A stretch of 44,362 bases of DNA, taken from assembly GCA_963718515.1 (NCBI GenBank), contig OY970354.1, positions 1 through 44,362 of the forward strand, written 5' to 3'. The DNA comes from an uncultured bacterium (GTDB lineage: Bacteria; Patescibacteriota; Minisyncoccia; UBA6257; 2-01-FULL-56-20). Shown one piece after another: positions 1 to 35,308 of this stretch (positions are counted from its first letter, which is position 1; every line of letters begins with the position of its first letter). The notes beneath the pieces were generated by a model. It did not search any database. It was given only the letters and a program-made list of their open reading frames with translations, and was not told the DNA's origin. A program made the position numbers and the translations under genes.

Positions 1-462
1 GCCTAGGGGGCTATCACCCGCTCTGGCGCCGCTTTCCAGACGGCTTTGGCTAACAAAAGATTTTTTTACTCCTCCACCTCCGTATGAATAACGAAGAGTA
101 CGCCACCACCCAAGAGGTGGTTTTATAGCGCGCCCTGCGTTATTCACTGGAGAGCGTTTTCTACTAAACCCCAAGGCTGTGATAAATCACAACCTTAGTT
201 TGGGCTGTTCCCTGTTCTCTCGCCGATACTTGGGGAATAACTGATTTGTTCTTTTTTCCTCCACTTACTGGAATGTTTTACTTCAGTGGGTACGCGAATC
301 GATTGCTCGAAACAATTGAGGGTTACTCAACTAGGTTTCCCCATTCGGAGATCCCCGGATCATAGGTTGCTACGCACCTCCCCGAGGCATATCGTTGCTA
401 CGCCGCGTCCTTCATCGCCTTTTCTAGTCTAGGCATCCACCGTTCGCCCTTATTTGCCAACC
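1..462 (-). rRNA. rrl: 23S rRNA, 5' end (domain I), partial; continues beyond the window start
   Basis: The reverse complement reads GGTTGGCAAATAAGGGCGAACGGTGGATGCCTAGAC...GGCGATGAAGGACGCGGCG...GATCTCCGAATGGGGAAACC...TCTGGAAAGCGGCGCCAGAGCGGGTGATAGCCCC. These are the conserved 5' motifs of bacterial 23S rRNA. ORFs 398..589 and 450..641 are therefore spurious. Confidence 0.9.
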
Positions 463-482
463 ATCCCAATGCTGACTTGCTT

Positions 483-1033: not shown

Positions 1034-1107
1034 TGGTCGGGCCGCCGGGAATCGAACCCGGTCTTTACGCACCCGAATCGCACGTACTACCGGTATACTA
1101 CGGCCCG
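1034..1107 (-). tRNA. tRNA-Pro (anticodon CGG), CCA encoded
   Basis: 74-nt cloverleaf: CGGGCCG-TA-GTAT-ACCGGTA-GTAC-G-TGCGA-TTCGGGT-GCGTA-AAGA-CCGGG-TTCGATT-CCCGG-CGGCCCG-A-CCA. It has a 7-bp acceptor stem, GG in the D loop, a canonical T loop, U33, G37, and the C1:G72/A73 pattern typical of Pro. Position 31:39 is an A/G mismatch, so the isotype is slightly uncertain. Confidence 0.8.
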
Positions 1108-1686: not shown

Positions 1687-3144
1687 TTACTTCACGTGAT
1701 GCTTCTCTTTTATATCATTATCCATTTCCATTTCCGCCTCACGCTTTTTTTTCTGCGCTTGCGCAAAGAGTCCGCGCAATTCCGCATCATCCAACTTATT
1801 GAACTCCTTCGCCCGCTTTTGCAAATATTTTTTCTCGTTTTTCGCCGGATCATCGATCACTTCTTCCATAAGTGCGTTCAGGATCCAACCGACGCGCATG
1901 GACTGGGGCAGGCCGAGGAGCGGCATCAGCTCATCGCCGCCGAGCGCGAGCATCTTCGGCGAAAGCGGATCACGCTTTACCTTCTCTATCATAAAGAGCA
2001 AATGGCGCAGACGGTACGGCATCGCTTTTTTGACGCCGGAGCCGATCCGGTCCGCTTCACGAACTTTTAATAGATCGTCGATGTTCTCCGGACCGACGCG
2101 AACCACGAACCGCCGCACGCCGGCAGGCGAGATGACGCCCGTGTCGTAATAAAACATGTGCGAGCGGATGAGATGTCCGACAGCCTCCACAAAATCTTTT
2201 GGGAAGCGCAGTCGGTCAAGCGCTTTGACCGCCATGCGCGCACCGACGTACTCATGCTGGTAGAACGTCGAATCGGGTCCGTCACCACCTTTCACCTTCG
2301 GCTTCCCCACGTCGTGGAGCAACGCCGCCATACGCACCACGAGCGAGTAATTCTCGCGCGCGGTGTACTCGAGCGCGCGGACGTTGTGCTCGAACACGGT
2401 GTAAATGTGATGCTTGTTCTGCCCGACGCCGAGCCCCTCGCGCAGTTCCGGCAAAACGTAGCGAAGCAGGTCGAGCTCTTCCAATAAGATGATGCCTTTC
2501 CCCGCGTTCGGCGTCATCAAAATCTTCACGAGTTCATCGCGCACACGCTCTTTTGCAATCGACTCCAATCCGCCCGCGAGTTTGACGATCGCGCGGCGCG
2601 TGTTCATCTCGATCTCAAAATCCAGTTCCACAGAAAATCGCACCGCACGCATCAAGCGCAATGCATCTTCCGAAAACCGTTCTTCCGGGGCGCCCACGGT
2701 GCGGATCACGCGGTCTTTGATGTCGCGCTCGCCGCCGAACGGGTCGATCACGTCGCCCTTCAAATTCATCGCAAGCGCGTTCACGGTGAAGTCGCGGCGC
2801 GAAAGATCGTCCTCTATATTAGAGGCAAACTTCACTTCGTCCGGATGCCGCTTGTCCGTGTATTTCCCTTCAATGCGATAGGTCGTGACCTGAATGATGG
2901 CGAGCGCGGGATCTGCGGATTCGGTTTTGATACCCACGGTGCCAAAATCATTCTCGTACACGCTGTCGGGAAATAATCTCTGGATCTCCGCCGGCTTCGC
3001 GTCCGTCGCCACATCCCAATCTTTCGGCGCGCGGCCAATCAGCATATCGCGTACACACCCTCCCACCAGGTACGCCTCAAATCCCGCTTCCGCAAGCGTC
3101 TTTGAAATCGCTATGACCTCCACCGGAACCTCGCTCTTCTTCAT
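1687..3144 (-). CDS. cca: CCA-adding tRNA nucleotidyltransferase with HD domain
   Basis: 485-aa ORF. It has the N-terminal GGCVRDMLIGRAPKDWDVAT polymerase-beta nucleotidyltransferase signature, RRDFTVNA, and an HD region (LLHDVGK). Confidence 0.9.
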   Translation of the reverse strand: MKKSEVPVEVIAISKTLAEAGFEAYLVGGCVRDMLIGRAPKDWDVATDAKPAEIQRLFPDSVYENDFGTVGIKTESADPALAIIQVTTYRIEGKYTDKRHPDEVKFASNIEDDLSRRDFTVNALAMNLKGDVIDPFGGERDIKDRVIRTVGAPEERFSEDALRLMRAVRFSVELDFEIEMNTRRAIVKLAGGLESIAKERVRDELVKILMTPNAGKGIILLEELDLLRYVLPELREGLGVGQNKHHIYTVFEHNVRALEYTARENYSLVVRMAALLHDVGKPKVKGGDGPDSTFYQHEYVGARMAVKALDRLRFPKDFVEAVGHLIRSHMFYYDTGVISPAGVRRFVVRVGPENIDDLLKVREADRIGSGVKKAMPYRLRHLLFMIEKVKRDPLSPKMLALGGDELMPLLGLPQSMRVGWILNALMEEVIDDPAKNEKKYLQKRAKEFNKLDDAELRGLFAQAQKKKREAEMEMDNDIKEKHHVK

Positions 3145-3166: not shown

Positions 3167-4297
3167 CTACCGCACGGTCGCGCCGAATTCCTCCGCGGTC
3201 TTTTTCTCCAATGTGTGATGCAATACGTCCACCTCCTCGTTCGTAAGCGTCCGGTCGTTCGCGCGGTACGTCACGCGGTAGGCGTAGCTCTTTTTATCCA
3301 CGCCGAACTTTTCGTCGTTCGCATACTCGTCAATAAGCGCCACCTGCTCCACAAGATCGCCCGCGATGTCGCGCACAAGGTCAAAGTAATCGTTCGGCGC
3401 GAATGTTTTGGGCACGATAAAAGAAATATCGCGGACGACCGGCGGATATTTGCTGACCTCGACGAACTTCACGCCCATATGCAATTGCTTCTTGACACGT
3501 TCGTCCGCAGACCATAGTAATCGGATATCAGGCAACTCCATGCTGATGATGGCAAGGCGCTCGAGGCCAAAGCCGAAGGCCCAGCCATTATATCCCTCCA
3601 AACCAAAGTTCTTCATCACGCTCTTCTTTGGCATGCCGCCGCCGAGAATCTCGATCCACTGTCCGTTCACGTCAACCTCCACCTGGAGCGACGGGTCGGT
3701 GTACGGAAATGTGTCGTCGAGAAAACGGTATTTCGTATCCGCCCCGAACAAACTTTTTACGATCTGGCTCAACGCATTGCGAAGGTCGTCGAGCGTCAAT
3801 GTTTTTTCCGAATCCGGCACCATGTACAATCCCCCGAACTGATGGAAGATGTTCATGTGGCGCCGGTCGATCTCGTCCTTGCGAAATACTTTTCCATAGC
3901 AGGTGACGCCGAACGATTCGCCGCGCGCGATGCGCTCTTTCACTTCCGGCAACTGCAAATAGTAGTACCACATGACAGTGTCATGCGTGCGTAAAATATT
4001 TTTCTCGTCTAAATAATATGTGTCCGACTTGCTCCGCGCCGGATGGTCGGCGGCAAAGTTAAAAAGGTCGAAGCTGATCGCGGCCGGCACCACTTGCGGT
4101 ATCACAACATTATCGAATCCCGCGAGCGCCGGTACGGCACACGCGCGTTCGACGATCTCATAGAGCGGACTGCCCGGCGTGCGCGAAAGATCCGGCATCC
4201 CGAGATAGCGCCGGATCCGCTCCGCCTCCGCATCGGTGCGCACCTTGAGCGATTCCAAGATCCTCATCTGCTCCTCAACCGGGATCGTATATTCCAT
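3167..4297 (-). CDS. pheS: Phenylalanine-tRNA ligase, single-chain type: alpha-like catalytic core fused to a C-terminal FDX-ACB domain
   Basis: Class II motifs FRKDEIDRRHMNIFHQFGG and GWAFGFGLERLAII are present. The C-terminal ~110 aa, KYPPVVRDISFIV...DLVEQVALIDEY...SYAYRVTYRANDRTLT, forms the FDX-ACB domain. I place the start at MEYTIPVEEQ (fwd 4297); the ORF is open to 4333. Confidence 0.9.
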   Translation of the reverse strand: MEYTIPVEEQMRILESLKVRTDAEAERIRRYLGMPDLSRTPGSPLYEIVERACAVPALAGFDNVVIPQVVPAAISFDLFNFAADHPARSKSDTYYLDEKNILRTHDTVMWYYYLQLPEVKERIARGESFGVTCYGKVFRKDEIDRRHMNIFHQFGGLYMVPDSEKTLTLDDLRNALSQIVKSLFGADTKYRFLDDTFPYTDPSLQVEVDVNGQWIEILGGGMPKKSVMKNFGLEGYNGWAFGFGLERLAIISMELPDIRLLWSADERVKKQLHMGVKFVEVSKYPPVVRDISFIVPKTFAPNDYFDLVRDIAGDLVEQVALIDEYANDEKFGVDKKSYAYRVTYRANDRTLTNEEVDVLHHTLEKKTAEEFGATVR

Positions 4298-4373
4298 AAT
4301 GCTGATGGTATCAAAAAGGATGCCGAAGGGCAATTATTCCTATCACGAGGCGAGGAGCGGTTATTGGATTGAG

Positions 4374-4448
4374 TGGTGCCGACGGCAGGGATCGAACCTG
4401 CGACCTTGGCCTTATGAAAGCCCTGCTCTACCACTGAGCTACGTCGGC
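4374..4448 (-). tRNA. tRNA with anticodon CAT (elongator Met, or Ile2 if lysidine-modified), CCA encoded
   Basis: 75-nt cloverleaf: GCCGACG-TA-GCTC-AGTGGTA-GAGC-A-GGGCT-TTCATAA-GGCCA-AGGTC-GCAGG-TTCGATC-CCTGC-CGTCGGC-A-CCA. The G1:C72 pair argues against an initiator. Confidence 0.85.
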
Positions 4449-4516: not shown

Positions 4517-6811
4517 CTAATACTTCTTCTCCATCACCCCTCGGGTCAGTGCTCCAAAGAATCCAGTCGCGGGCGATATCCCATTGGCTTTCTGCCACTT
4601 GGCTAAGGCAGCGGCGGTCTTTGCGCCGAAATAGATGGCTTCATTGCCGGGAGATCCTGCACCGGTTGCTGCCACGGTATACCCGTTGTCATTCAGGAAC
4701 ATCTGCAGATTCTTTACGTCTTGCCCCGAGGATCCGATCGTGAGGTTTCGGGTGAAGGTTGCGACAAGCTGGGTGTTCAACTGCGTGATGAGGGACTCAA
4801 GCTCGGCAAGCAGGGTCTGTAAGAGGGCTTCAAGATCGGTTGATCCTGGAGGAACTGACTGGGTTGAGGATGAGGTTGAAGACGATGAAGAGCCAGAGCC
4901 ACCAGAGCCAGAGCCTGATCCACCGCCCCCCCCGCCACCACCACCGCCACCACCTTGTGCCTGGTTCTCCACGTTCACAGTAATAGCGGTTGAGTTGGTA
5001 TTGTCCGAAGTGTCCGTGGAAAGGGCAGTGATCGTATGATTCCCATTCGCAAGTGCCGTTGTATCAAGCGACTCAGTCCATGAACTTGTGCCATTCGCTG
5101 ATGCATAGCTTCCTCCGTCAATTGAGATGCCAACACTCGCGACAGCCACATTGTCTGAGGCAGCACCGGAGATCGTGATCACACCCGAGACGGTTGCGTT
5201 GTTTGTGGGACTTGTGATCGCAATGGAGGGAGGAATGGTATCGCCTCCTGCTTGGGTCGTACCTGATACGGGAGATGACGATGAGCTGTTGTTGCCAGCG
5301 GCATCATAGGCGGAGACGGTGTACGTGTAGGTGGTTGAGGGGGTGAGGCCGGTGTCCGTGAAGTTCGTGGTAGGAGTCGTCCCTGCTTGGGTGCCATTGC
5401 GGATCACCTTGTATCCTGTGACGCCCACGTTGTCTGAGCTTGGACTCCAGGTAAGGGAGATGGTTGAGGTGGTGACGCCGATCACTTGGAGATTGGTTGG
5501 GGTCGTGGGGGGTTGGGTGTCAGAGGATGAAGCATTCTGCACGGTCACATTCACGGCTGAGGAGATCGTCTGATTGTTTGAGGTGTCTTTCGCCAGTGCC
5601 GTGATTGCGTGAGATCCATTCGCGACGCTGTTCGAGTTCCAAGCATACGTATATGGCGGGGTGGTGATGGGAGAGCCAATCAAGGTTCCGTCAATCCTGA
5701 ACTGTACGGATGCGACGGCCACATTGTCTGATGCGGTTGCGGCGAGGGCGACGGTTCCCGAGACGGTCGCGCCATTCACGGGTGCGGTCATGCTGACCGT
5801 GGGCGGTTGCGTGTCCACAAACTTGGTTGATCCTTGGACCGGGGAAGATGCGGCAGAGTTGTTGCCCGCGGCATCGTAGGCGGAGACGGCATACGAATAC
5901 GTGCTTGATGGGGTGAGCCCTGTGTCATTGAAACTCGTATTCGCGGTTGTGCCGATCTGGACGCTCGGGGTACAGACGCCAGCACAGCGGTAGATCTTGT
6001 AGCCCGTGACACCGACGTTGTCGACGGATGCGGTCCAGCTGAGCGAGATGGTTGAGGTCGTGGTTCCCGTGACCGCAAGATTGGTGGGGACGGTTGGCGG
6101 TTGGGTGTCAGGATTCGTGACGGTGACCGTGACGCTTGCGGAGGTGCCCACATTTCCTGCCGCATCGTAGGCCTTCGCCGATAGCACATGCGTTCCATTC
6201 GATGCCGTCGTTGTGTTCCAACTCCAGGTGAAGGGCGATGATGAGTCGGTGGCAACAAGGACATTGTCGAGATAGAACTGGACGGAGGTGACGCCGACAT
6301 TGTCAGAGGCGGTGGCTGCGACCGTGATAGTGGATGAGACGGTGGCTCCTGAGAGCGGCGAGGTGATGGAGACGGTGGGAGGCTGGGTATCTTGATTTCC
6401 TGAAGTGATCGCGCTCACGGCTGATGACTCTGACGACGTATTGCCGTTCGTGTCATATGCGGCAACCGCATATGAATATGTAGTGGATGCAGTGAGTCCC
6501 GTATCCGTGTATGCGGTATTCCCCGTTGTTCCAACCTGGACGCTCGGAGTGCAAACGCCTGTGCAAGATTGGGTAATAACTTGAGTCCCCTTACTCGTGT
6601 TTTTATATGCGAATGTGAAGCGCGGCAATCGATTGAAGTCAGCCCGGCCAGCCTGAAAAATCCTGAATTGGCCAATTGTTCCCTGCTCCTCGGAGATACC
6701 ATTGAAGTGAGGGCGACGGGCAGGCAGGATTCGGTGCTCATCAGATTCATCAGCACCAAGATGAAGGATGATGCCCGCGATGAACATTCCGGCTGTGAGC
6801 TCGGAAAACAA
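4517..6811 (-). CDS. Wall-associated surface protein A (764 aa): FN3 and Ig-like repeats, poly-Gly/Ser linker, C-terminal peptidoglycan-binding domain; N-terminus atypical with no signal peptide
   Basis: - FN3 units are present (PPTVPTNLAVTGTTTSTISLSWTASVDNVGVTGYKIYR...YSYAVSAYDAAGN).
- Ig-like units are present (TQPPTVSITSPLSGATVSSTITVAATASDNVGV).
- A G11-(SG)n run is followed by FTRNLTIGSSGQDVKNLQMFLNDNGY...YFGAKTAAALAKWQKANGI.
- The first ~85 aa are unrelated, and the ORF starts inside half an FN3 unit. Confidence 0.75.
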   Translation of the reverse strand: MFSELTAGMFIAGIILHLGADESDEHRILPARRPHFNGISEEQGTIGQFRIFQAGRADFNRLPRFTFAYKNTSKGTQVITQSCTGVCTPSVQVGTTGNTAYTDTGLTASTTYSYAVAAYDTNGNTSSESSAVSAITSGNQDTQPPTVSITSPLSGATVSSTITVAATASDNVGVTSVQFYLDNVLVATDSSSPFTWSWNTTTASNGTHVLSAKAYDAAGNVGTSASVTVTVTNPDTQPPTVPTNLAVTGTTTSTISLSWTASVDNVGVTGYKIYRCAGVCTPSVQIGTTANTSFNDTGLTPSSTYSYAVSAYDAAGNNSAASSPVQGSTKFVDTQPPTVSMTAPVNGATVSGTVALAATASDNVAVASVQFRIDGTLIGSPITTPPYTYAWNSNSVANGSHAITALAKDTSNNQTISSAVNVTVQNASSSDTQPPTTPTNLQVIGVTTSTISLTWSPSSDNVGVTGYKVIRNGTQAGTTPTTNFTDTGLTPSTTYTYTVSAYDAAGNNSSSSSPVSGTTQAGGDTIPPSIAITSPTNNATVSGVITISGAASDNVAVASVGISIDGGSYASANGTSSWTESLDTTALANGNHTITALSTDTSDNTNSTAITVNVENQAQGGGGGGGGGGGGSGSGSGGSGSSSSSTSSSTQSVPPGSTDLEALLQTLLAELESLITQLNTQLVATFTRNLTIGSSGQDVKNLQMFLNDNGYTVAATGAGSPGNEAIYFGAKTAAALAKWQKANGISPATGFFGALTRGVMEKKY

Positions 6812-6876
6812 TTCTTCTTGGAACGAAAGCGATATCTGGAACTTCGCGAGAAATATAACGAACTAAGAAATTCGGA

Positions 6877-6897
6877 GGGTCGCTATTATAGCGGCCC
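6877..6897 (-). terminator. Possible terminator after giant gene B
   Basis: fwd GGGTCGCTATTATAGCGGCCC forms a 7/8-bp GC-rich stem with a 5-nt loop. It lies 12 nt after the stop and is followed on the minus strand by a moderately T-rich tract. Confidence 0.35.
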
Positions 6898-6908
6898 TTT
6901 CTCTTCCT

Positions 6909-16800: not shown

Positions 16801-19196
16801 GTAACTGTGTAGCTTATGATCGGTGATCCGCCAGTAGATGACGCAGTGAATGTTATCGTCGCTTCCCCATTTCCACCTGTTGCAACGACGCTCGTTGGAG
16901 CGCTTGGTGTTGTCGCCGGTGTCACCGAGTTGCTGGTGCCAGACGGAATGCTCGTGCCGACCGCATTGGTCGCCGTCACGGTAAATGTGTATGCCGTGCC
17001 GTTATTCAAGCCTGTTACGGTGATCGGACTGCCCGTCGAGGTGGCAAACGCTCCGGTGTTTGCAGTGACGGTGTAGCTTGTGATAGTAGAACTGCCAGTG
17101 TTCACCGGTGGCGCGAAGGTGATCGTGGCTTGCGTGCTACTCGCTGTTGCCGTGACGCTGGTTGGCGCATCGGGCACGCCCGCCGGCGTGACGGAATTGG
17201 ATGCCGTGGATGTTGCGCTGATTCCAAACGCGTTCGTCGCCGTCACGGTGAAGGTGTATGTCGTGCCGTTATTCAATCCCGTCACCGTGATCGGACTGCC
17301 AGTGGAACTTGCAGCAAATCCGCCGACATTCGAAGTGGCGGTGTAGTAAAGAATTGCACTGCCACCATTCGTGTCAGGAACGGTAAAGGAAACCGCGGCT
17401 GCCGAATTGCCGCGAATGGCACTTACCGAAGTCGGCGCATCCGGCACCGTTGCCGGCGTCACGGAATTCGATGCAGTGGACGCGGTGCTCGTGCCAACTG
17501 AGTTCGTTGCCGTGACGGTAAAGGTGTACGCGGTGCCGTTGCTCAAGCCGGTGATCGTGATCGGTGACGATGTGCTTGTGGCAGTGAATCCGCCCACGTT
17601 CGAGGTGACAGTGTAGCTAATAATAGAGGAGCCGCCTGTGCTCGTCGGCGCACTAAAGGTGATCGTTGCCTGCGTGCTCGTAGTAACGGCTGTCACAGAA
17701 GTTGGCGCGCCGGGCACCGTCGCAGGCGTCACCGAATTCGATGCGCTCGAAGGCGTGCTTGTGCCGATTGCATTCGTCGCGATCACCGTAAACGAATAAC
17801 TCGTGCCGTTGCTCAGTCCTGTCACCGTGATCGAGTTCCCGGTCGAGCTCGCGGAAAATCCTCCCGCGCTCGACGATGCAGTGTAGTAGAGGATCGGCGA
17901 TCCGCCGGTGGACGACGCAGTGAACGTGATGGTTGCCTGACCATTGCCGCCGGTCGCGACGACATTCGTCGGCGCCGCAGGTACGGTCGCTGGCGTCACC
18001 GAATTACTAACGCCGGAGACCGAACCCGTTCCGATCGCATTCGTTGCCGTAACGGTAAATGTGTATGCCGTGCCGTTATTCAAACCCGTCACGGTAATGG
18101 GACTGCCTGTTGAAGTTGCAGAGATATTATTCGGATTCGAAGTGACGGTGTAGCTAATAATAGAGGAGCCGCCGGTGCTCGATGGTGCGCTAAAGGTGAT
18201 CGTCGCCTGACCATTGCCAGCGGTCGCGCTCACGCTCGTCGGTGCACCAGGAACGCCGATCGGGGTGACTGAATTTGATGCGGTGGAGGACGAACTCGTT
18301 CCCGCCGCATTCGTTGCGGTGACCGTGAACGTGTATGTGGTGCCGTTGCTCAAGCCGGTGATCGTGATCGGTGATGCGCCGCCAGTTGCAATGAAGTTAC
18401 CGATGTTTGACGTAACCGTGTAACTTGTGATCGGCGAACCGCCGGTGCTCGATGGTGCGCTAAAGGTGATCGTCGCTTGCGTGCTTGTGGCAACGGCTGT
18501 CACGGCAGTCGGCGCGCCAGGCACTGTCGCAGGCGTCACTGAATTGCTCGTGGCAGATGGCGTGCTCGTTCCCACTGCATTTGCTGCTGTGACCGTGAAG
18601 GTATATGTCGTTCCATTAGCTAAACCGGTCACGGTAATCGGACTTCCGGTCGAGGTGGCGCTGAACGTATTCGTGTTATCGATCGCAGGGGTAACGGAGT
18701 TTGATACAGTGGACGGCGAACTTGTTCCGGCTGCGTTCGTTGCTGTGATGGTGAACGTATACGCGGTGCCGTTGCTCAAACCGGTGATCGTGATCGGTGA
18801 TGAGCCGCCGTTCGCAGTGAAATTACCGATGTTCGATGTGACAGTGTAATTTGTGATCGGCGAACCGCCGGTTGACGATGCCGTGAAGGTGATCGTTGCC
18901 TGACCATTACCACCAACTGCCGCGACATTTATCGGTGCGCTTGGTACAGTCGCCGGAGTCACTGCATTGCTCGTGCCGGAAGGCGTGCTTGTTCCGGCCG
19001 CATTCGTTGCAGTAACGCTGAACGTGTATGTGGTGCCGTTGCTCAAACCGGTGATCGTGATCGGTGACGATGTGCTTGTGGCGCTAAATCCCCCAATATT
19101 TGAGCTGACTGTGTAGCTAATAATAGAGGAACCACCCGTGCTCGATGGTGCACTAAAGCTTATCGTTGCTTGCGTGCTCGTAGCAACAGCCGTCAC
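13887..19196 (-). CDS. C-terminal fragment (1,769 codons) of the split giant surface-protein gene: ~17 tandem FN3 domains, a unique beta-rich domain, poly-Gly, and a PG-binding domain
   Basis: - Repeats of ~90 aa (PGAPTSVTAVATSTQATITFSAPSSTGGS.I.SYTVTSN...SPITITGLSNGTTYTFTVTATNAAGTS).
- The C-terminus reads G8SSG8...LLNLLITELQALLKEAQ...RDLTIGSTGADVTSLQEFL...YFGLITQAALAEYQ.
- The annotated M is a GTG inside a repeat, with no signal peptide. Confidence 0.85.
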   Translation of the reverse strand: MTAVATSTQATISFSAPSSTGGSSIISYTVSSNIGGFSATSTSSPITITGLSNGTTYTFSVTATNAAGTSTPSGTSNAVTPATVPSAPINVAAVGGNGQATITFTASSTGGSPITNYTVTSNIGNFTANGGSSPITITGLSNGTAYTFTITATNAAGTSSPSTVSNSVTPAIDNTNTFSATSTGSPITVTGLANGTTYTFTVTAANAVGTSTPSATSNSVTPATVPGAPTAVTAVATSTQATITFSAPSSTGGSPITSYTVTSNIGNFIATGGASPITITGLSNGTTYTFTVTATNAAGTSSSSTASNSVTPIGVPGAPTSVSATAGNGQATITFSAPSSTGGSSIISYTVTSNPNNISATSTGSPITVTGLNNGTAYTFTVTATNAIGTGSVSGVSNSVTPATVPAAPTNVVATGGNGQATITFTASSTGGSPILYYTASSSAGGFSASSTGNSITVTGLSNGTSYSFTVIATNAIGTSTPSSASNSVTPATVPGAPTSVTAVTTSTQATITFSAPTSTGGSSIISYTVTSNVGGFTATSTSSPITITGLSNGTAYTFTVTATNSVGTSTASTASNSVTPATVPDAPTSVSAIRGNSAAAVSFTVPDTNGGSAILYYTATSNVGGFAASSTGSPITVTGLNNGTTYTFTVTATNAFGISATSTASNSVTPAGVPDAPTSVTATASSTQATITFAPPVNTGSSTITSYTVTANTGAFATSTGSPITVTGLNNGTAYTFTVTATNAVGTSIPSGTSNSVTPATTPSAPTSVVATGGNGEATITFTASSTGGSPIISYTVTSNSGGFTATGGASPITITGLSNGTAYTFTVTATNAVGTSTASTASNSVTPATTPGAPTSVTAVATSTQATISFSAPSSTGGSAILYYTASSNVGGFTASSTGSPITVTGLTNGTTYTFTVTATNAIGTGLISGTSNSVTPATTPSAPTNVSATGGNGQATVSFTASSTGGSPITNYTVTSNSGGFTATGGNSPITITGLSNGTTYTFTVTATNAVGTSTISGTSNSVTPSTMPDAPTSISATGGNGQATITFTAPANNGGSAITSYTVTSNIGGFTATGGASPITVTGLTNGTTYSFTVTATNGAGTSTSSGSSNSIIPATVPSAPISVSATAGVAQATITFTASSTGGSPILYYTATSNVGGFTASSTGSPITVTGLNNGTTYTFTVTATNAVGTSTLSGTSNSVVPAAAPNAPTGVSATGGNGEATITFSAPTSTGGSSIISYTVTSNVGNFTASGGASPITITGLSNGTPYTFTVTATNSVGTSTASAASNSVTPATVPDAPTNVAASVGNQSAGVAWSAPADNGGSPIISYTVTSNNNISVVSTGTTAVVTGLNNGTAYTFTVTATNAVGTSTVSGTSNSVTPAGVPGVPTNLAATVEDSAVALSWSAPSSTGSSAITNYVVEYELSTGGTWAPFSDGTSTTPDITVTGLANGNSYDFRVSAVNAVGQGIATSPVSATPGPPAQVLIQSFSGLTTPTISTAVRITNEGATAYEYTYTWCVTNNETDQCGGSGSIFSSTDEKLIQPGQNFDTVLNSTVPSAGNYWFHLAVQFGSSVSEADQSFTATAPASGGGGGGGGGSSGGGGGGGGTGVIASYIPPTSATGSATSTVISSNSTSGSSTLAQEELLNLLITELQALLKEAQAQGITIPLSTDAYLNGESGTYQLSAIPRDLTIGSTGADVTSLQEFLVTKDVGPDATALANVGATGYFGLITQAALAEYQATVGITPAQGYFGPITRAYLRSIGD
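14750..19196. repeat. Tandem coding repeat array, period ~265-270 bp (FN3 units)
   Basis: The protein periodicity is ~90 aa. Long exact DNA recurrences exist, for example 68 nt at 15454-15521 equal to 17602-17669. Confidence 0.85.
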
Positions 19197-20760
19197 GCCG
19201 GTCGGCCGATCCGTTCACCGCAACCGCGCCTTCAGAATATGCGTTATAAATTGTTCCAAGATTTTCTCCCACAAAATCTCCGCCGTAAGCGATACCTCCA
19301 ACAACACCAGCCGAAGTAGCGCCAGCAATTCCGCCGGTGCCTCCGGTGCCCGCAGATTGTCCGGCTCCGCCTTTTCCACCATTACCGCCTGTGCCGCCGG
19401 TTCCACCTGGCCCCCCGGCATGATTTCCAACACCAAGCGATCCATTACCACCAGTGCCGCCCACACCTCCTGCTCCGCCATTTGCTGCCAACGATGTTAC
19501 CGTTCCCCCCGCGTATGAATTTAAAATGACACCGGTCGCGGAGTTGTTTGCGGTAAGTCCGCCGGCATACGATGCGCCGCCCGTTCCACCAGCGCCACCG
19601 GTGCCGCCGCTCGCCGCAGTGGATCCGGAAATATTTCCGCTCGCGCCCCCCGCGCCGCCGACACCCGTGGTGCCAACTCCCCCGCTCACCGAATCAACAT
19701 TTCCTAACGCGTATGACGTTCCTTGAATGACTCCTGTGTTCACGCCGAGGAGTCCACCCGCGTACGATGCGCCGCCGTTTGCGGTAGCGCCTCCGGCACC
19801 GCCAACGCCGCCGAGCGCGCCTGAACCACCCGTGCCGCCAATGACTCCCGTCGCTCCGTTACCGCTCGCGCCCCCCTGGGCCGTCACGTTGTCCGTGGAA
19901 TAACTTGTTGTGACGGCGAGATCGGTGATCGCGCTCGCGCTCGTTTGCGCGATGAGTCCACCAGCGTATGCGGCACCACCAACACCGCTTGAACCGCCGG
20001 CGCCCGTTGCGCCTCCAGCCTTAGTAGATCCTCCGGAGCCAGATGTGCCGGCGCTGCCACCGTTTCCTCCGGTACCGCCAGTTGAGGTGGCATTATTTCC
20101 AATCGAGAATGAAGAAAGATAATTGATCGCACCGGTTGTGACGCTCACGTATCCCATCAAGCCACCGGCGTCCGCTTCGCCTCCGGCACCACCGGCACCA
20201 CCGGCACCACCGGCACCACCGATGGAACTTGCCGCGCCGTTCGAACCGATACCACCGGTGTTGCCCGTACTCCCCGTTCCTCCATTCGCGCTCACACTCC
20301 CACTCGCGTAAGAAGTTTCTACATCGATCTGTCCTGTCGTGATTCTATTATTACCAACGAGACCTCCTGCGTACGATGCGCCGCCAACCGCTGCGGTCAC
20401 TGCGCCGCCGCCGGCGCCGCCGGTGACGGTGGTTCGCGACGGACCGCCGTTTCCTGATGTGCCCGCTGTTCCCGCGCCGCCTCCGAATGAAGAAACATTT
20501 CCTGTTGCGAAATCGTTGAGGAAGTTGCTCGTACCGGAACTGAAGCTATTGTATCCAACCAAACCGCCGGCATCAGCTTCGCCGCCGACACCCGCAGAGC
20601 CGCCGAGTGCGCCGGGCGATCCGGCGGCAGTCGACGTTGCAAGCGATCCATCGCCGCCGTTTCCGCCGACACCTCCATTGCCACCAAGGCCGCCGGTCGA
20701 GGTAACATTTCCCGTTGCGCTCGAATTAAGTATTTGTAAAATTTGCGTGGTGCCCGTCAT
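19153..20760 (-). CDS. Middle fragment (535 codons) of the split giant gene: Gly/Ala-rich GLUG-like repeats
   Basis: The repeats have the form (Y/A)AGGL(V/I)G.N...I..SYA.G.V...GG.GG.G. The same frame stays open and in repeat register upstream of its first Met, back to a TGA at fwd 20896-20898. Confidence 0.8.
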   Translation of the reverse strand: MTGTTQILQILNSSATGNVTSTGGLGGNGGVGGNGGDGSLATSTAAGSPGALGGSAGVGGEADAGGLVGYNSFSSGTSNFLNDFATGNVSSFGGGAGTAGTSGNGGPSRTTVTGGAGGGAVTAAVGGASYAGGLVGNNRITTGQIDVETSYASGSVSANGGTGSTGNTGGIGSNGAASSIGGAGGAGGAGGAGGEADAGGLMGYVSVTTGAINYLSSFSIGNNATSTGGTGGNGGSAGTSGSGGSTKAGGATGAGGSSGVGGAAYAGGLIAQTSASAITDLAVTTSYSTDNVTAQGGASGNGATGVIGGTGGSGALGGVGGAGGATANGGASYAGGLLGVNTGVIQGTSYALGNVDSVSGGVGTTGVGGAGGASGNISGSTAASGGTGGAGGTGGASYAGGLTANNSATGVILNSYAGGTVTSLAANGGAGGVGGTGGNGSLGVGNHAGGPGGTGGTGGNGGKGGAGQSAGTGGTGGIAGATSAGVVGGIAYGGDFVGENLGTIYNAYSEGAVAVNGSADRRDGCCYEHASNDKL

Positions 20761-23700
20761 GCGTCCGATAAGTCCTCCGCCGTATGTTGCGGCACCTGCG
20801 CCGCCCGCACCTCCAGCGCCGCCGGCCGCGGCGGTGCCGGTCGTGAGAGTGCTTCCTGATGTTCCGCCGGTTCCGCCGTTACCGCCAAGTCCGCCTCAGA
20901 ATATGAGTTTGATTGGATCACTCCCGTGCTATAACCGACAAGTCCTCCGGCATACACACCACCGCCAGCGCCTCCGGCACCGCCAACGCCGCCAACTCCG
21001 CTCAGCGCCGTACCGGTTCCTGCGCCGCCCGCACCGCCTTGAGCAGACGCACCACCGGCGCCACCGTTTGCGGTGACAGTTCCAGTTCGAGCATAAGAAT
21101 TTGTGATCGTCCCTAAAATATTTTGACCGACGAGGCCGCCTGCTTGTACCGCGGAACCGATGACTCCTCCGCTTGCACCTCCGGCGCCGCCAACACCGCC
21201 GCCGCCGCCAGCATGGTTTGTTCCCGCTGATCCATTTCCTCCAGCACCGCCGGTTCCGCCAGCACCGCCGGTTCCGCCGGTGGTCGTAACACTTACTGTT
21301 GCGTAAGAATTATTGATAATTGCTTTCGCTGAAGTATTGTATCCCACTAATCCACCGACATTGGTAGCGCCGCCGACTCCGCCCGCAGCGCCGTTGCCGC
21401 CGACCGCAGCAGTACCGCCCGATATATTTCCGCTTGCGCCCGCGCCACCGCCACCGCCACCGCTTCCCGCGTTGCCTCCGTAATCGGTAATAGAACCGGT
21501 TTGATAATACGAATTTTGAATGGTGTCGCCCGCATTTTCTCCAATGAGACCGCCAGTATATGTTGCGCCGCCGGCGCCGCCAATGACTCCCGCGCCGCCG
21601 ATACCTCCGATCGCGCCCGATCCACCGGCGCCGCCCGTGCCTCCGGAGCCGCTATTTCCTCCCGCACCTGCGGCAGTATTTATGACACCGGTTGCATAAG
21701 AATTACTGATCACGCCCGACACTAAATATCCGGCGAGGCCACCGGTGTATGCTGCAGCACCGGCGCCGCCCGATGCGCCGGCGCCGCCGGCGCCGCCGGC
21801 AGCCGCATTTCCGGTTCCACCCGCGCCGCCCGATCCGGCAATTCCACCGGCGCCCGCGATGACCCCTACATTGCCGTTGGCATAAGAGCTATCAATATTG
21901 ACTGTCGTGTTTGTGTATCCCACCAGCCCTCCCGTATACGTAAGTCCACCAGCACCACCTGCGCCACCGGTTCCACCCGCACCACCGACGGTAGATGTCG
22001 CAGCGTTACCGCCAGCGCCACCGGTTGCTCCAGCGCCGCCAATATCTCCGGCCACGGTAACATTTCCAGTCGCGGAAGAATTATCGACCGATGATCCTGC
22101 GCCGCTAAGATCTCCGATCAATCCTCCGGCGTTTGTTGCAGTGGCTTGAGTAGTACCGCCGGCGCCTCCCGCGCCGCCAGTACCGCCGAGCGCTCCGTTC
22201 GTACCCGCAGCAGGAGTTCCTCCAAGACCTCCCGTGTCGGAAGCGACGGTTACGTTATCGGTAGAAAAAAGATATGAAAAAATCACGTCAGCCAATGAGT
22301 TGTGGCCTACCGCGCCACCGATAAAGATTGCGCCCGTTGTAGCTCCAAGACCTCCCGTTCCCCCTTGACCATTTTTACCTCCACCGCTTCCCGGATTTCC
22401 TCCGGTTCCACCTGCGCCACCGGCGCCGGCAACACCGCCAGCGATAACCGCGATCGTTCCTCCGGTGCTCGTGGAGTTTGAAATATTTCCGTTGCCTTGC
22501 CCGGCCAATCCTCCTAAATATACGTTGCCGCTTGAACCTCCTGTTCCGCCAGTACCCGCAACACCGCCGTTGTGTCCACCGGTTCCAAGCGTTCCATCAC
22601 CACCTGTACCGCCCGTGCCTCCCGCACCGCCCGATGCGTTGCTGGTACTCAAACTACCCGTGACGACAGAATTGCTGATCACTCCCGGATTGTCACCAGT
22701 AATTCCACCCATATATGTTGCACCACCCGCGGCACCATTTCCTCCGTTGCCGCCGCTCGCCGCAGTGCCTCCCGATATATTTCCGCTCGCACCGCCATTG
22801 CCGCCATTTCCCGCGAGTCCCGCGATGCCGCCTTCAACACTAATGGTCGTGACCGTGTAGTTGATACCGGTGATGATGCCCGTGTTCGAACCGGTGACCC
22901 CGCCGCCGTACGCAGCGCCGCCTGCACCGCTCGCTCCGCCCGTGCCACCAGCACCGCCGATCGCTCCAGCGGTGTTTCCTCCGGCGCCGCCAGCACCACC
23001 GGTTCCACCAGCGCCGCCCGTGCCACCGGTTGAAGTGATGGTTCCTGTCGCGTTCGCAATGCTGATCGTAGTACCAAGAACTCCGTTCCATGCAATAACT
23101 CCTCCGGCGTACGCGGCGCCACCAGCACCTCCGGCGCCGCCAGTAACTCCTGCGACTCCCGCAACTCCTGCACCGCTCGATCCGCCGGCGCCCGCAATGT
23201 TTCCTGAACCACCACTACCACCCGATGAAGATGCATTGCCCATTGCGTAACTACTCGAGCTTACAATCGCAACATTGTATCCGACCAATCCTCCCCCGTA
23301 CGCCGCGCCTCCGGCACCGCCACCGCCGCCCGCAATGCCCGCAGCGCCCGCGACCGCGTTGCTCGAGTTGCCGCCACTCGGCGATGCGCCGGGCGTAGCT
23401 CCGGTGCCGCCGATCGCTGTCGCATTTCCTGTTGCGTAAGAATTACCTTCAACGATGCCGTTCGTATTATTGTAACCAAGCAATCCTCCGACGTATGCCG
23501 CACCACCAGCTTCCGAAATTCCGCCGGTTGCACTAAATGCGCCGCCGGTTGCACCGGTGGATCCATTTCCTCCAGCGCCGCCCGCGCCCGCAGATCCTCC
23601 CGCACCGCCGGTGGCGATCGCATTTCCTGTTGCGTAAGAATTTTCGATAACGCCGTTACTCAAACCAACCAAGCCTCCCGAGTACGCAACGGCTCCTACA

Positions 23701-28928: not shown

Positions 28929-29177
28929 ATTTCCTTAATTTTACCACATATTTCCAGCATAAAACCGAAATTAATTCATTAAAATTCATCCTGTCGACCA
29001 ATTATTTTCTACCGCGGTATTTTGGAAAAATCAGTAAAATCTGACGCACATAAAACTACTGGCCGAAGCCCAATTCAAAGGTGAGGCTATGACAAAAGCG
29101 ACCCTTGCTTCGCTAAAAAAATATGGCACGAATGCCAGCCGATAATCTCTTTATTTGATACTTGTGATAAATAAATG

Positions 29178-29220
29178 TATTCAAGTTAATTCTGTAGACC
29201 ATATTGAATTAACTTGAATA
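29178..29220. repeat. Perfect 15-bp inverted repeat with a 13-bp spacer (43-bp palindromic site) at the left edge of the low-GC island
   Basis: TATTCAAGTTAATTC (29178-29192) and GAATTAACTTGAATA (29206-29220) are exact reverse complements. The site lies 8 nt beyond the stop of the HTH gene. Confidence 0.7.
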
Positions 29221-29227
29221 TATCCAA

Positions 29228-29527
29228 TCAGATATTTTTAGGCGGGATAGGGACTGGAATCGGTATGGGAATATCCTTGTTTTTTATGATATTTTTATTT
29301 CCCTTTTTTGGGCCTGGCCTTCCTAGACTATTCAAGCTATTTATACCGCCCTTTTTATATTGTTCTACCCAGTTACTCACCGCTTCATAACTAACACCCA
29401 TATGTTTTGCGACCTGATACTGTGACCAACCATGGTTATATAACTCGATCGCCTCTTTCCGACGCTCCACAAGAAGTGCTCGATCAACCCGTCTGTGGGT
29501 ATTTGAAGATATGTCTTTTCCGTCCAT
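29228..29527 (-). CDS. Small helix-turn-helix protein (99 aa) resembling the N-terminal HTH of IS630/Tc1-type transposases
   Basis: From the MDGKD start it reads ...RRKEAIELYNHGWSQYQVAKHMGVSYEAVSNWVEQYKKGGINSLNSLGRPGPKK, then an IPIPIPVPIPP tail. The longer ORF to 29755 overlaps the recombinase 5' end and has an implausible N-terminus. Confidence 0.65.
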   Translation of the reverse strand: MDGKDISSNTHRRVDRALLVERRKEAIELYNHGWSQYQVAKHMGVSYEAVSNWVEQYKKGGINSLNSLGRPGPKKGNKNIIKNKDIPIPIPVPIPPKNI

Positions 29528-29641
29528 TGATTCATGATAGCAAACCTCGGAGCGGTGACCAATCCTGTGGATAACCGAGAGCAAAAATGAATGCCTCGGT
29601 CGCTCTGGACTCCTAGAGGGGGTTGCGTCATCAATGTTGGT

Positions 29642-31036: not shown

Positions 31037-31082
31037 CTTCAAAGCGATTATTTTATATGAATTTTTAATGTGATAGTCCTTC

Positions 31083-34884: not shown

Positions 34885-35308
34885 CGAAAAGCTTAGCGAT
34901 ATCTATTTCAAACAACGTGGCGAGGGATTCGGCGCGGAAGCAAAACGCCGCATCATCCTCGGCACCTTCGTGCTTTCTTCCGGCTACTACGACGCCTATT
35001 ATGAAAAAGCCCAACGCGTCCGCACGCTCATCCGGCGCGATTTCGACGAGGCATTCAAAAACGTTGACGTGATCCTTGCCCCGACAACGCCCACCCCTGC
35101 GTTCAAGATCGGCGAAAAGACGAACGATCCCCTCGCGATGTATCTCGAAGATGTCTTCACGATCCCCGTAAACCTCGCTGGCTTGCCCGGCATCTCGATC
35201 CCGGTGGACGGCGCAACGCCCCTCCCCGTCGGCTTCCAGCTGATCGGAAAAAAGTGGCACGAGGCAGACATTCTGAATATCGGCCGCTATTATGAAAAAT
35301 TAAGGTAA
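34835..35308 (+). CDS. gatA: Asp/Glu-tRNA amidotransferase subunit A, C-terminal 1/3 (+1 frame relative to the N-terminal part)
   Basis: It reads ...[56 protein letters not shown]...[11 protein letters not shown], which is the canonical GatA C-terminal region. Confidence 0.85.

What the first reader, a model, noticed from the sequence alone, without database searches (positions are those of the whole stretch)
3167..4297. Mitochondrial-type single-chain PheRS (catalytic core fused to an FDX-ACB domain) with no adjacent pheT
What the sequence shows:
- The 376-aa product has the class II PheRS alpha core, with motif 2 region FRKDEIDRRHMNIFHQFGG and motif 3 GWAFGFGLERLAII.
- Its N-terminus is short.
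- It continues ~110 aa past motif 3: PDIRLLWSADERVKKQL...VSKYPPVVRDISFIVPKTFAPNDYFDLVRDIAGDLVEQVALIDEYANDEKFGVDKKSYAYRVTYRANDRTLTNEEVDVLHHTL.

Established knowledge: the KYP.V.RDISF ... DLVE.V.LID ... Y(R)(I/V)TYR pattern is the ferredoxin-fold anticodon-binding (FDX-ACB) domain. In canonical bacterial (alpha-beta)2 PheRS this domain ends the beta subunit PheT. In mitochondrial PheRS (yeast MSF1, human FARS2) it is fused to the alpha-like core, giving a monomeric enzyme. From memory, the tail here is strikingly like the FARS2 C-terminus.

pheS and pheT are normally adjacent. Here the next gene, 23 nt downstream, is cca.

Inference: a bacterium using a monomeric mito-like PheRS would be an unusual minimisation, and it bears on the origin of the organellar enzyme.
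Basis: partly seen in the sequence, partly recalled or inferred. Interest (0 to 1): 0.65.

Follow-up and report, generated by a model that had tools for sequence, protein, structure and literature searches.

The report
Single-chain mitochondrial-type PheRS in a CPR bacterium
This ultra-small (Patescibacteria/CPR) bacterium encodes a one-piece phenylalanyl-tRNA synthetase built like the mitochondrial enzyme FARS2, and hundreds of related bacterial species share it, although the papers I could search describe this design only for organelles and giant viruses.

Summary
Window 3167..4297 (-) encodes a 376-aa protein with a class II PheRS catalytic core (Pfam tRNA-synt_2d, E 1e-49) fused to a C-terminal FDX-ACB anticodon-binding domain (E 1.5e-25). 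It has no PheS N-terminal coiled coil. No pheT lies in the 44-kb window. Its best solved relative is human mitochondrial PheRS (E 2.5e-62, against 4.5e-34 for bacterial PheS). An AlphaFold model (pLDDT 96) superposes on 3CMQ with TM 0.80.

The gene is not an oddity. Relatives occur in at least 568 species genomes of Paceibacteria/Parcubacteria, in UGA=Gly CPR lineages and in an Oligoflexia MAG. Together they form a bacterial clade beside the mitochondrial and viral clade.

The most likely reading is that this is the cell's housekeeping, editing-free, monomer-type PheRS. I could not scan the rest of the 829-kb genome for pheT. The indirect support is that about 14% of 176 CPR draft genomes have FDX-ACB but neither the PheT B5 domain nor the PheS N-domain.

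The protein falls below every NCBIfam cut-off (pheS_mito, SrmL, pheS), and NCBI calls its relatives "hypothetical". Its Phe pocket is altered (Glu→Gly155, Phe→Tyr199). Some relatives carry a stand-alone PheT-B2-like gene just upstream. I found no paper describing a bacterial monomeric PheRS.

The parts
3167..4297 (-). Gene for the single-chain PheRS (376 aa plus TAG stop at 3167-3169)
   Evidence: ORF list; Pfam two-domain architecture; identical protein P0001 and 376-aa relatives with the same start
4169..4297 (-). N-terminal 43 residues: a short helical hairpin (helices 8-18 and 23-33) carrying the clade-specific motif R..R.L..P.L. It is not the PheS coiled-coil domain.
   Evidence: No PF02912 hit; AF2 secondary structure with pLDDT 92-96; conserved R27, R30, L32, P35, L37 in the bacterial fused clade; not alignable with the human enzyme
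3485..4168 (-). Class II PheRS catalytic module (residues 44-271)
   Evidence: PF01409 E 9.9e-50; 29% identity to E. coli PheS over the core
3830..3892 (-). Motif 2 region K136-G156 (KVFRKDEIDRRHMNIFHQFGG). R139 is invariant. G155 sits where canonical and mitochondrial enzymes have Glu (human Glu159).
   Evidence: Alignments; residue census over 205 CPR relatives
3689..3709 (-). Phe-pocket strand F197-P-Y199-T200-D-P-S203 (E. coli F248-P-F250-T251-E-P-S)
   Evidence: Pairwise alignment with E. coli PheS; FPYTDPS in 198 of 205 relatives
3545..3586 (-). Motif 3 G238-I251 (GWAFGFGLERLAII). A240 corresponds to E. coli Ala294, the specificity residue. R247 is invariant.
   Evidence: the role of Ala294 is taken from PMC3275996
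3455..3484 (-). Residues 272-281, the end of the inter-domain linker. The conserved hinge segment PDIRLLWSADERVKKQ (P256-Q271) lies just before it, inside the Pfam core envelope.
   Evidence: Invariant P256, D257, I258, R259, W262, S263, D265, R267, Q271; the same segment is conserved in the human enzyme
3170..3454 (-). FDX-ACB (B8-type) anticodon-binding domain, residues 282-376
   Evidence: PF03147 E 1.5e-25; matches to PheT C-termini in PDB and to E. coli PheT
1687..3144 (-). Context only: CCA-adding enzyme/poly(A) polymerase-family gene 22 nt downstream. The adjacency is kept only in the closest relatives.
   Evidence: Pfam; synteny in L001/L002; cca lies directly downstream in only 5 of 69 loci
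4374..4448 (-). Context only: tRNA-Met (CAT) 76 nt upstream, on the same strand
   Evidence: ARAGORN and Rfam

Best explanation
The gene encodes this Paceibacteria-type CPR bacterium's working phenylalanyl-tRNA synthetase, built on the mitochondrial (PheRS-M) plan. One chain carries the class II catalytic module, which makes Phe-AMP and transfers Phe to A76 of tRNAPhe. A conserved hinge joins it to a B8/FDX-ACB domain that reads the GAA anticodon. By analogy with human mtPheRS, the enzyme rests in a closed state and the anticodon domain must swing open to bind tRNA. It has no B3/B4 editing domain, so fidelity depends on the synthetic site, which is remodelled here (Gly155 for Glu, Tyr199 for Phe, probably Trp110 for Gln). 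Shown: the architecture, the fold, conservation of the catalytic and pocket residues, and the wide distribution in CPR. Inferred: the monomeric state, tRNAPhe charging, and the absence of canonical PheS/PheT elsewhere in the genome.
For: Architecture and profile scores. The best solved relative is human mtPheRS. The AF2 model has pLDDT 96.2 and pTM 0.91. It matches closed-state 3CMQ at TM 0.80/0.75 and rmsd 3.0 A, against 0.60 for the open tRNA-bound 3TUP and about 0.54 (core only) for bacterial PheS. Class II motif arginines R139 and R247, H147, Q153, F197, T200, A240 and G242 are invariant or nearly so across 75 bacterial, viral and mitochondrial sequences. D323-x-Y325 and S337 in the FDX-ACB domain match the PheT 'D-x-Y' and 'KS' positions (the residue roles are from memory of the T. 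thermophilus complex). The family is under strong constraint: the 120 best relatives are 72-86% identical and full length, and at least 568 species genomes carry it. There is one PheS-like gene and no B3/B4-B5 PheT in 86 relatives' loci plus the window, 1.3 Mb in all. In the anvi'o CPR marker matrix, 24 of 176 draft genomes have FDX-ACB without B5 and without Phe_tRNA-synt_N, and only 1 has FDX-ACB and the PheS N-domain without B5. These 24 are as complete as the B5-positive genomes; Fisher p = 8e-8. A further 7 of 53 genomes in part 9 show the same pattern, counted by eye. In several relatives the only PheT-like gene nearby is a 130-aa stand-alone B2 domain in an operon with the fused gene. 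Human mtPheRS is active as a monomer (PMC3275996).
Against: Only 44 kb of the 829-kb contig could be read, so a canonical pheST elsewhere is not excluded. The marker matrix is anonymised, made of draft genomes, was transcribed by hand, and cannot be tied to this lineage. The protein scores below the curated cut-offs of pheS_mito (224.5 against 258.35). It scores almost as well on NCBI's 'PheS-related mystery ligase SrmL' model (222.4 against 300). The acidic residue conserved in canonical, mitochondrial and 'type B' CPR enzymes is Gly here, so altered substrate handling is possible. An Oligoflexia MAG with a normal-sized gene repertoire also carries a relative, which there may be an extra paralogue.
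Confidence: 0.75

Rival explanations
1. Accessory paralogue. The genome also has a normal pheS-pheT operon outside the window, and this protein is a PheS-related ligase with some other role, as NCBI's 'mystery ligase SrmL' label implies for a related family.
For: The SrmL model scores 222.4 bits, nearly equal to pheS_mito. The bacterial fused clade scores relatively better on SrmL than the viral and mitochondrial sequences do. Some Paceibacteria do have canonical pheST (Minisyncoccus; a Nealsonbacteria PheT in UniRef). The Oligoflexia MAG relative sits among ordinary metabolic genes. Gly155 replaces a conserved acidic pocket residue.
Against: A 0.8-Mb CPR genome rarely keeps redundant synthetases. 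The marker matrix shows a class of CPR genomes with FDX-ACB but no B5 and no PheS N-domain. The score is below the SrmL cut-off of 300, and no protein in any search reached that cut-off or carried the SrmL name. The Phe-specific pocket residues F197, T200 and A240 are kept.
Confidence: 0.12
2. Two-piece enzyme. The fused chain works together with a separately encoded PheT-B2-like tRNA-binding protein (about 130 aa, PF01588), here encoded somewhere outside the window, which restores a tRNA-body contact lost with PheT.
For: In L015, L062, L073, L089 and the P0292 locus the B2-like gene ends 2-45 nt upstream of the fused PheRS gene. The B2-like family has 653 members, and the 120 best listed are all stand-alone proteins of 119-172 aa with only that domain. 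It occurs beside both type A (window-like GG/FPY) and type B enzymes. It can also lie elsewhere in the genome (L098).
Against: It is absent from the window and from 83 of 86 relatives' loci. It is absent next to the Nealsonbacteria and Wolfebacteria genes. Mitochondrial PheRS needs no such partner.
Confidence: 0.1
3. Same fold, changed amino-acid selectivity. The Glu-to-Gly155, Phe-to-Tyr199 and Gln-to-Trp110 changes alter what the pocket accepts. One possibility is tighter rejection of Tyr and meta-Tyr, compensating for the missing editing domain. A less likely one is a different substrate.
For: In human mtPheRS, Gln124 and Glu159 hydrogen-bond the meta-OH of m-Tyr (PMC3275996). By the phmmer alignment these positions are Trp110 and Gly155 here. 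The GG/FPY combination is fixed in 188 and 198 of 205 window-type relatives, whereas type B keeps D and FPF.
Against: The Gln124-Trp110 equivalence depends on the alignment, because an 8-residue insertion lies next to it. No coordinates or docking were available. The remaining pocket residues are canonical for Phe.
Confidence: 0.3

Closest known systems
Mitochondrial monomeric PheRS (PheRS-M of AARS Online; human FARS2, yeast MSF1; NCBIfam TIGR00469 pheS_mito; PDB 3CMQ and 3TUP)
   Same: It has the same two-domain chain (catalytic module plus B8/FDX-ACB) and the same hinge sequence PDIR(L/F)(L/F)W..DER. There is no editing domain and no beta subunit. The fold matches at TM 0.80 with 33% identity. 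A 65%-identical CPR relative (P0121) passes the TIGR00469 cut-off.
   Different: It is bacterial, chromosomal and has no presequence. It lacks the 30-80-residue insertion between motifs 2 and 3 that mitochondrial enzymes carry. Its N-terminal 54 residues are unrelated and form a helical hairpin. The pocket changes are Gly155, Tyr199 and probably Trp110. The window protein scores below the TIGR00469 cut-off (224.5 against 258.35). It belongs to a separate bacterial clade (81% bootstrap).
Canonical bacterial (alpha-beta)2 PheRS: PheS (TIGR00468) and PheT (TIGR00472)
   Same: The catalytic core is homologous to PheS (29% identity to E. coli PheS). The tail is homologous to the PheT C-terminal B8 domain (27% identity).
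   Different: It has no PheS N-terminal coiled coil. It has none of PheT domains B1-B7, including the B3/B4 editing site. The two parts are fused in one chain. Scores are far below both cut-offs (155.7 against 237; 70.8 against 403). There is no adjacent pheT.
NCBIfam NF051887 'PheS-related mystery ligase SrmL'
   Same: The profile (349 positions) covers both the core and the FDX-ACB part of the window protein (residues 63-365) at 222.4 bits. SrmL therefore appears to have the same single-chain architecture.
   Different: The score is below the 300-bit cut-off. No true SrmL member was recovered in any search, and I found no paper on it. Its hosts and function therefore could not be compared.
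Virus-encoded PheRS-M-like enzymes (nucleocytoviruses, PMC11304981; huge phages)
   Same: They are compact single-chain enzymes of 338-360 aa with the same two domains, and they pass the TIGR00469 cut-off. They sit on phage-like and giant-virus-like contigs.
   Different: They group with the mitochondrial sequences or are unresolved, not with the CPR clade. They share 32-38% identity with the window protein.

Membership tests
PheRS-M / TIGR00469 (mitochondrial-type monomeric PheRS) | Single chain: class II PheRS catalytic module followed by a C-terminal FDX-ACB (B8) domain | tested here: met
   PF01409 over residues 44-271 and PF03147 over 282-376
PheRS-M / TIGR00469 (mitochondrial-type monomeric PheRS) | Three-dimensional fold and domain arrangement of human mtPheRS | tested here: met
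   AF2 pLDDT 96.2; 3CMQ TMq 0.80, TMt 0.75, rmsd 3.0 A over 386 columns
PheRS-M / TIGR00469 (mitochondrial-type monomeric PheRS) | Whole-protein score at or above the curated cut-off (258.35 bits) | tested here: not met
   224.5 bits. The relative P0121 reaches 264.3, so the CPR clade straddles the cut-off.
PheRS-M / TIGR00469 (mitochondrial-type monomeric PheRS) | Active as a monomer and charges tRNAPhe without a beta subunit | not testable with these tools
   Needs size-exclusion analysis and an aminoacylation assay
PheRS-M / TIGR00469 (mitochondrial-type monomeric PheRS) | No canonical PheS/PheT serving the same compartment or genome | tested here: inconclusive
   None in the 44-kb window or in 86 relatives' loci. 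A class of CPR drafts has FDX-ACB without B5 or the PheS N-domain.
PheRS-M / TIGR00469 (mitochondrial-type monomeric PheRS) | Groups with mitochondrial sequences in a phylogeny of the core | tested here: inconclusive
   All single-chain enzymes form one clade at 100% bootstrap. The CPR and other bacterial sequences form their own clade (81%) beside an unresolved mitochondrial-plus-viral group (NJ, 197 columns).
Canonical bacterial PheS (TIGR00468) | N-terminal coiled-coil tRNA-binding domain (PF02912) | tested here: not met
   No hit. Only 43 residues precede the core, against 107 in E. coli.
Canonical bacterial PheS (TIGR00468) | Score at or above 237.45 bits, and a partner pheT, normally adjacent | tested here: not met
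   155.7 bits; no pheT in the window
SrmL (NF051887) | Score at or above 300 bits | tested here: not met
   222.4 bits
SrmL (NF051887) | Whatever genomic or functional trait led the curators to separate it from PheRS (presumably co-occurrence with normal PheST) | not testable with these tools
   No description, paper or member sequence was found

The most novel reading that the evidence does not exclude
The catalytic-module/B8 fusion did not arise in eukaryotes. It arose in bacteria, either in the CPR/Patescibacteria or in their phages, by reduction of pheST. The 'stand-alone B2 + fused chain' operon would be a surviving intermediate. The mitochondrial enzyme (FARS2/MSF1) and the giant-virus enzymes would then descend from such a bacterial or phage single-chain PheRS that replaced the alphaproteobacterial heterotetramer before LECA.
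Probability: 0.3. Interest if true: 0.8.

Novelty: new member of a known kind. Interest (0 to 1): 0.6.

Why it matters
Reviews describe the mitochondrial enzyme as the only monomeric synthetase with a class II core and as the newest PheRS branch, confined to organelles (PMC3275996). AARS Online files it as 'PheRS-M' with FARS2 as the type (PMC11580382).

A large, conserved bacterial clade with the same architecture has three consequences.

- **A free-living-type genome can do without the beta subunit and its editing site.** This matters for ideas about minimal translation systems and mistranslation tolerance in CPR bacteria.
- **It affects genome quality scoring and annotation.** pheS (TIGR00468) and pheT (TIGR00472) are, from memory, among the bac120 markers used to place and score genomes. 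They would be systematically 'missing' in these lineages.
- **It supplies a bacterial outgroup and possible donor for the origin of FARS2.** It also offers a compact bacterial enzyme for biochemical and engineering work.

Tried and rejected
- **Finding pheT in the same genome was not possible.** The window protein is 'not on record' in the contig index. Only 20-kb flanks of relatives can be fetched.
- **Literature searches.** Nothing was found on SrmL or 'mystery ligase'. Nothing links PheRS or pheT with CPR/Patescibacteria. Nothing was found on a bacterial monomeric PheRS.
- **Supplement searches for KO or gene tables.** PMC11188291 and PMC12239599 gave nothing. PMC10936435 showed only that Minisyncoccus has canonical pheST.
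- **Looking for SrmL.** I searched with the Oligoflexia relative P0124. The search found a second CPR subfamily instead, and no SrmL-named protein.
- **BFVD fold search.** Only generic class II synthetases came back.
- **INPHARED phage search.** Hits were mostly host pheS in unverified 'phage' records, plus two distant fused-type hits.
- **Sequencing-run search.** Only weak soil and freshwater DNA hits, no RNA, so there is no expression evidence.
- **Metagenome scan with the B2-like protein.** Only 4 loci were returned, and 2 were too short to judge.
- **Rejected: cca adjacency as a conserved operon.** It holds in only 5 of 69 loci.
- **Rejected: the TTG at 4333 as the start codon.** The extension it adds does not resemble the N-terminal extensions of relatives.
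Full report
**Observation.**
The minus-strand ORF 3167..4333 contains an ATG at 4297 that gives a 376-aa protein. This protein is identical to database entry P0001 and colinear with many 376-aa relatives. Pfam finds the PheRS class II core (PF01409, residues 44-271, E 9.9e-50) and a complete FDX-ACB domain (PF03147, residues 282-376, E 1.5e-25). It finds no PheS N-terminal domain. The tail aligns end to end with the last 100 residues of E. coli PheT (27% identity), and the core is 29% identical to E. coli PheS. The downstream gene, 22 nt away, belongs to the CCA-adding/poly(A) polymerase family. A tRNA-Met lies 76 nt upstream. tblastn with E. coli PheT finds nothing PheT-like in the window.

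**What the protein is.**
- Against solved structures, the best sequence matches are all human mitochondrial PheRS (E 2.5e-62). The best bacterial PheS alpha subunit scores E 4.5e-34, and PheT chains match only the last 100 residues.
- NCBIfam ranks pheS_mito (TIGR00469, 224.5 bits) first. It is followed by 'PheS-related mystery ligase SrmL' (NF051887, 222.4 bits), bacterial pheS (155.7) and pheT (70.8, tail only). Every score is below its curated cut-off. This explains why NCBI labels many relatives 'hypothetical protein' while JGI calls them 'PheRS alpha chain'.
- An AlphaFold2 model built on a 75-sequence alignment is very confident (pLDDT 96.2, pTM 0.91). Foldseek places it on human mtPheRS in the closed state (3CMQ: TM 0.80/0.75, rmsd 3.0 A, 33% identity). 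The open tRNA-bound form 3TUP gives TM 0.60, and bacterial PheS chains match only through the core (about 0.54).

**Organism and distribution.**
- The window comes from an 829,201-bp contig. It carries CPR hallmarks: the start of a 23S rRNA gene, small housekeeping genes and giant surface proteins.
- The 120 best database relatives are 72-86% identical, full length and, where named, from Patescibacteria/Paceibacterota/Minisyncoccia MAGs.
It confirmed 568 loci, and the best 80 (59-80% identity) are from MAGs labelled Paceibacterota, Kaiser-, Zambryski-, Giovannoni-, Nomura-, Colwell-, Harrison-, Staskawicz- and Doudnabacteria. Several sit on contigs of 0.44-0.81 Mb.
- A second CPR subfamily ('type B', 40-50% identical to the window protein) occurs in Wolfe-, Staskawicz-, Nealson- and Portnoybacteria.
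- More distant bacterial relatives:
  - P0125 and P0129 show Trp at invariant Gly positions. This is the signature of UGA=Gly (code 25) CPR lineages translated with the wrong table.
  - P0124 comes from an Oligoflexia MAG, where it sits among ordinary metabolic genes.
- The form is not universal in Paceibacteria. The cultured Minisyncoccus archaeiphilus has adjacent canonical pheT (2046 nt) and pheS (1062 nt).

**Is it the only PheRS?**
This is the point I could not test directly, because only the window and 20-kb pieces of relatives are readable. Four lines of indirect evidence bear on it.
1. In 86 relatives' loci plus the window (1.3 Mb), each locus has exactly one PheS-like gene, the fused one. 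None has the B3/B4, B5 or catalytic-like parts of PheT. This shows only that pheT is not adjacent.
2. The anvi'o CPR training matrix (supplement 1 of PMC8672522) records Pfam markers for 797 anonymised CPR draft genomes.
   - I transcribed 176 rows by hand.
   - 24 genomes have FDX-ACB but neither B5 (PheT) nor Phe_tRNA-synt_N (PheS). Only 1 has FDX-ACB and the PheS N-domain without B5.
   - Among B5-positive genomes that also have FDX-ACB, 53 of 84 have the PheS N-domain (Fisher p = 8e-8).
   - The 24 genomes are as complete as the B5-positive ones (median 27 other markers in both groups). They share other traits (few have enolase, more have PNPase and RbfA), which suggests a coherent lineage.
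   - In rows 745-797, 7 of 53 show the same pattern, counted by eye.
   - This is what genomes with only the fused enzyme would look like. The rows cannot, however, be tied to this lineage.
3. The family is under strong constraint and is present across hundreds of species with 0.8-Mb genomes.
4. In several relatives the only PheT-like gene near the locus is a 130-aa fragment-like gene, described under 'A PheT remnant in relatives' below.

I put 0.75 on the housekeeping reading.

**Active site and anticodon domain.**
- Class II motif 2 Arg (R139) and motif 3 Arg (R247), together with H147, F151, Q153, E216, G219, G221, G242 and G244, are invariant across 75 bacterial, viral and mitochondrial sequences.
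- The Phe-pocket strand is F197-P-Y199-T200, where E. coli has F248-P-F250-T251. A240 corresponds to E. coli Ala294, the residue whose Gly mutant relaxes specificity (PMC3275996).
- Two changes stand out.
  - The acidic residue after FHQ (human Glu159, E. coli FHQMEG) is Gly155 here. It is Gly in 188 of 205 window-type relatives. Type B keeps Asp together with FPF.
  - By the phmmer alignment with the human enzyme, Gln124 corresponds to Trp110. An adjacent 8-residue insertion makes this equivalence less certain.
- In human mtPheRS, Gln124 and Glu159 hydrogen-bond the meta-hydroxyl of m-Tyr (PMC3275996). Losing both could tighten rejection of hydroxylated analogues in an enzyme that has no editing domain. 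This is inference only.
- In the FDX-ACB domain, D323-E-Y325 and K-S337 match positions I recall as contacting G34 in the T. thermophilus complex (beta Asp729, Tyr731, Ser742). That assignment is from memory and was not tested here.

**Phylogeny.**
I built a neighbour-joining tree of the core. It used 197 columns, 55 sequences and 200 bootstraps, with six canonical PheS outgroups from E. coli, Acinetobacter, Pseudomonas, Listeria, Staphylococcus and a Ruminococcus phage.
- All single-chain enzymes form one clade at 100% bootstrap.
- The Oligoflexia-type, code-25 CPR and Paceibacteria-type sequences together form a bacterial clade (81%).
- The Paceibacteria-type sequences form a clade at 97%.
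- Named eukaryotic sequences (Salpingoeca, Schizosaccharomyces Msf1, Branchiostoma) fall with short 338-360-aa sequences in a poorly resolved group (28%).
- Several of those short sequences lie on phage-like contigs (PcfJ, dNMP kinase, dense ORFans). One lies on a giant-virus-like contig. Giant-virus PheRS of organellar type is already published (PMC11304981).

The fusion therefore looks like a single invention shared by bacteria, viruses and mitochondria. The bacterial clade is not nested inside eukaryotes at this resolution, and the direction of transfer is open. The method is crude, and the outgroups include no alphaproteobacterial or CPR canonical PheS.

**A PheT remnant in relatives.**
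- tblastn with E. coli PheT detected its B2 (tRNA_bind, PF01588) domain immediately upstream of the fused gene in L015, L062 and L073. These are stand-alone ORFs of 136-163 aa with the PheT-type KHPNADRL...CGA.NF...RG.ESQGM signature.
- The family has 653 members. The 120 best listed are all stand-alone proteins of 119-172 aa.
- In two further long contigs (730 kb and 852 kb), the B2-like gene ends 2-15 nt before a 378-379-aa fused PheRS gene.
- It occurs with both type A and type B enzymes. It can also lie elsewhere in the genome.
- It is absent from the window, from 83 of the 86 relatives' loci surveyed, and from the Nealsonbacteria and Wolfebacteria loci.
- It may be a trans-acting tRNA-binding helper, and it is a plausible relic of stepwise PheT reduction.

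**Mechanism.**
The protein most likely works like mtPheRS. The catalytic module makes Phe-AMP. The B8 domain binds the GAA anticodon. The conserved PDIRLLWS.DER hinge lets the anticodon domain swing from the closed form (as modelled) to the open tRNA-bound form. There is no post-transfer editing.
- Shown: the architecture, the fold, residue conservation and the distribution.
- Inferred: the monomeric state, the substrate, the conformational cycle and sole-enzyme status.

**Known or new.**
The kind is known: PheRS-M, TIGR00469. Curators evidently know a related bacterial family, SrmL. I found no paper describing a bacterial or CPR single-chain PheRS. Reviews call the mitochondrial enzyme unique (PMC3275996). 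AARS Online lists PheRS-M with FARS2 as its type structure and gene, and the paper mentions no bacterial members (PMC11580382). I therefore file it as a new (bacterial, CPR) member of a known kind, with subfamily-level peculiarities.

**Limits.**
- Genome-wide absence of pheT is not shown.
- The marker matrix is anonymised and was transcribed by hand.
- The tree is neighbour-joining only.
- SrmL could not be characterised.
- There is no expression evidence.

Noticed in passing
window 33844..35308 (+): gatA (the amidase subunit of the Asp/Glu-tRNA amidotransferase) is split into a 346-aa ORF and an overlapping 157-aa ORF. The second ORF matches residues 340-487 of the intact 487-aa GatA of a relative at 76% identity. 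This is either a real frameshift or an assembly error in the long contig.
   Followed up: partly
window 4517..31868: About 27 kb lies between the PheRS gene and the murD-like gene that is absent from the syntenic relative L001. It holds five giant repeat-rich surface-type proteins (764, 1955, 1769, 535 and 2723 aa), a large serine recombinase (29591..31036) and a DUF5677 gene. GC content swings from 0.44 to 0.62. It looks like a variable or mobile insertion.
   Followed up: no
L015 9560..9970; L062 9484..9975; L073 4763..5173; L089 6001..6399: A stand-alone PheT-B2-like tRNA-binding protein (PF01588, about 130-160 aa) is encoded directly upstream of the fused PheRS gene in some Parcubacteria. 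The family has 653 members. It is not present in the window.
   Followed up: yes
P0125, P0129 (loci L005, L006): These distant fused-PheRS relatives have Trp at invariant Gly positions (for example GWAFGFG read as WRAFGIW), and the locus 'does not translate to the query'. They probably come from UGA=Gly (code 25) Gracilibacteria/Absconditabacteria-type genomes.
   Followed up: partly
L087 (160-kb contig), P0138 contig, L088 (252-kb contig), L090 (LR745206, 635-kb uncultured phage): Compact mitochondrial-type PheRS genes (338-360 aa; those scanned pass the TIGR00469 cut-off, L090 was not scanned) sit on contigs that look like huge phages (PcfJ, dNMP kinase, dense ORFans) and on one that looks like a giant virus (MC1, thymidine kinase, ankyrin repeats).
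   Followed up: partly
window 1..463 (-) and 1034..1107 (-): The 5' end of a 23S rRNA gene lies at the window edge, with tRNA-Pro(CGG) and dut between it and cca. The relative L001 has a LAGLIDADG ORF in the stretch after dut that holds no other called genes, where the window has its 23S rRNA gene. An rRNA intron or insertion, as is common in CPR, is one possible reading.
   Followed up: no
L004 (Oligoflexia MAG GCA_019694465.1, contig JAIBBV010000034.1): A 414-aa fused PheRS relative (42% identity) sits among ordinary metabolic genes of a non-CPR bacterium. This is a good place to test whether bacterial single-chain enzymes coexist with canonical PheST, and a possible SrmL-like case.
   Followed up: no
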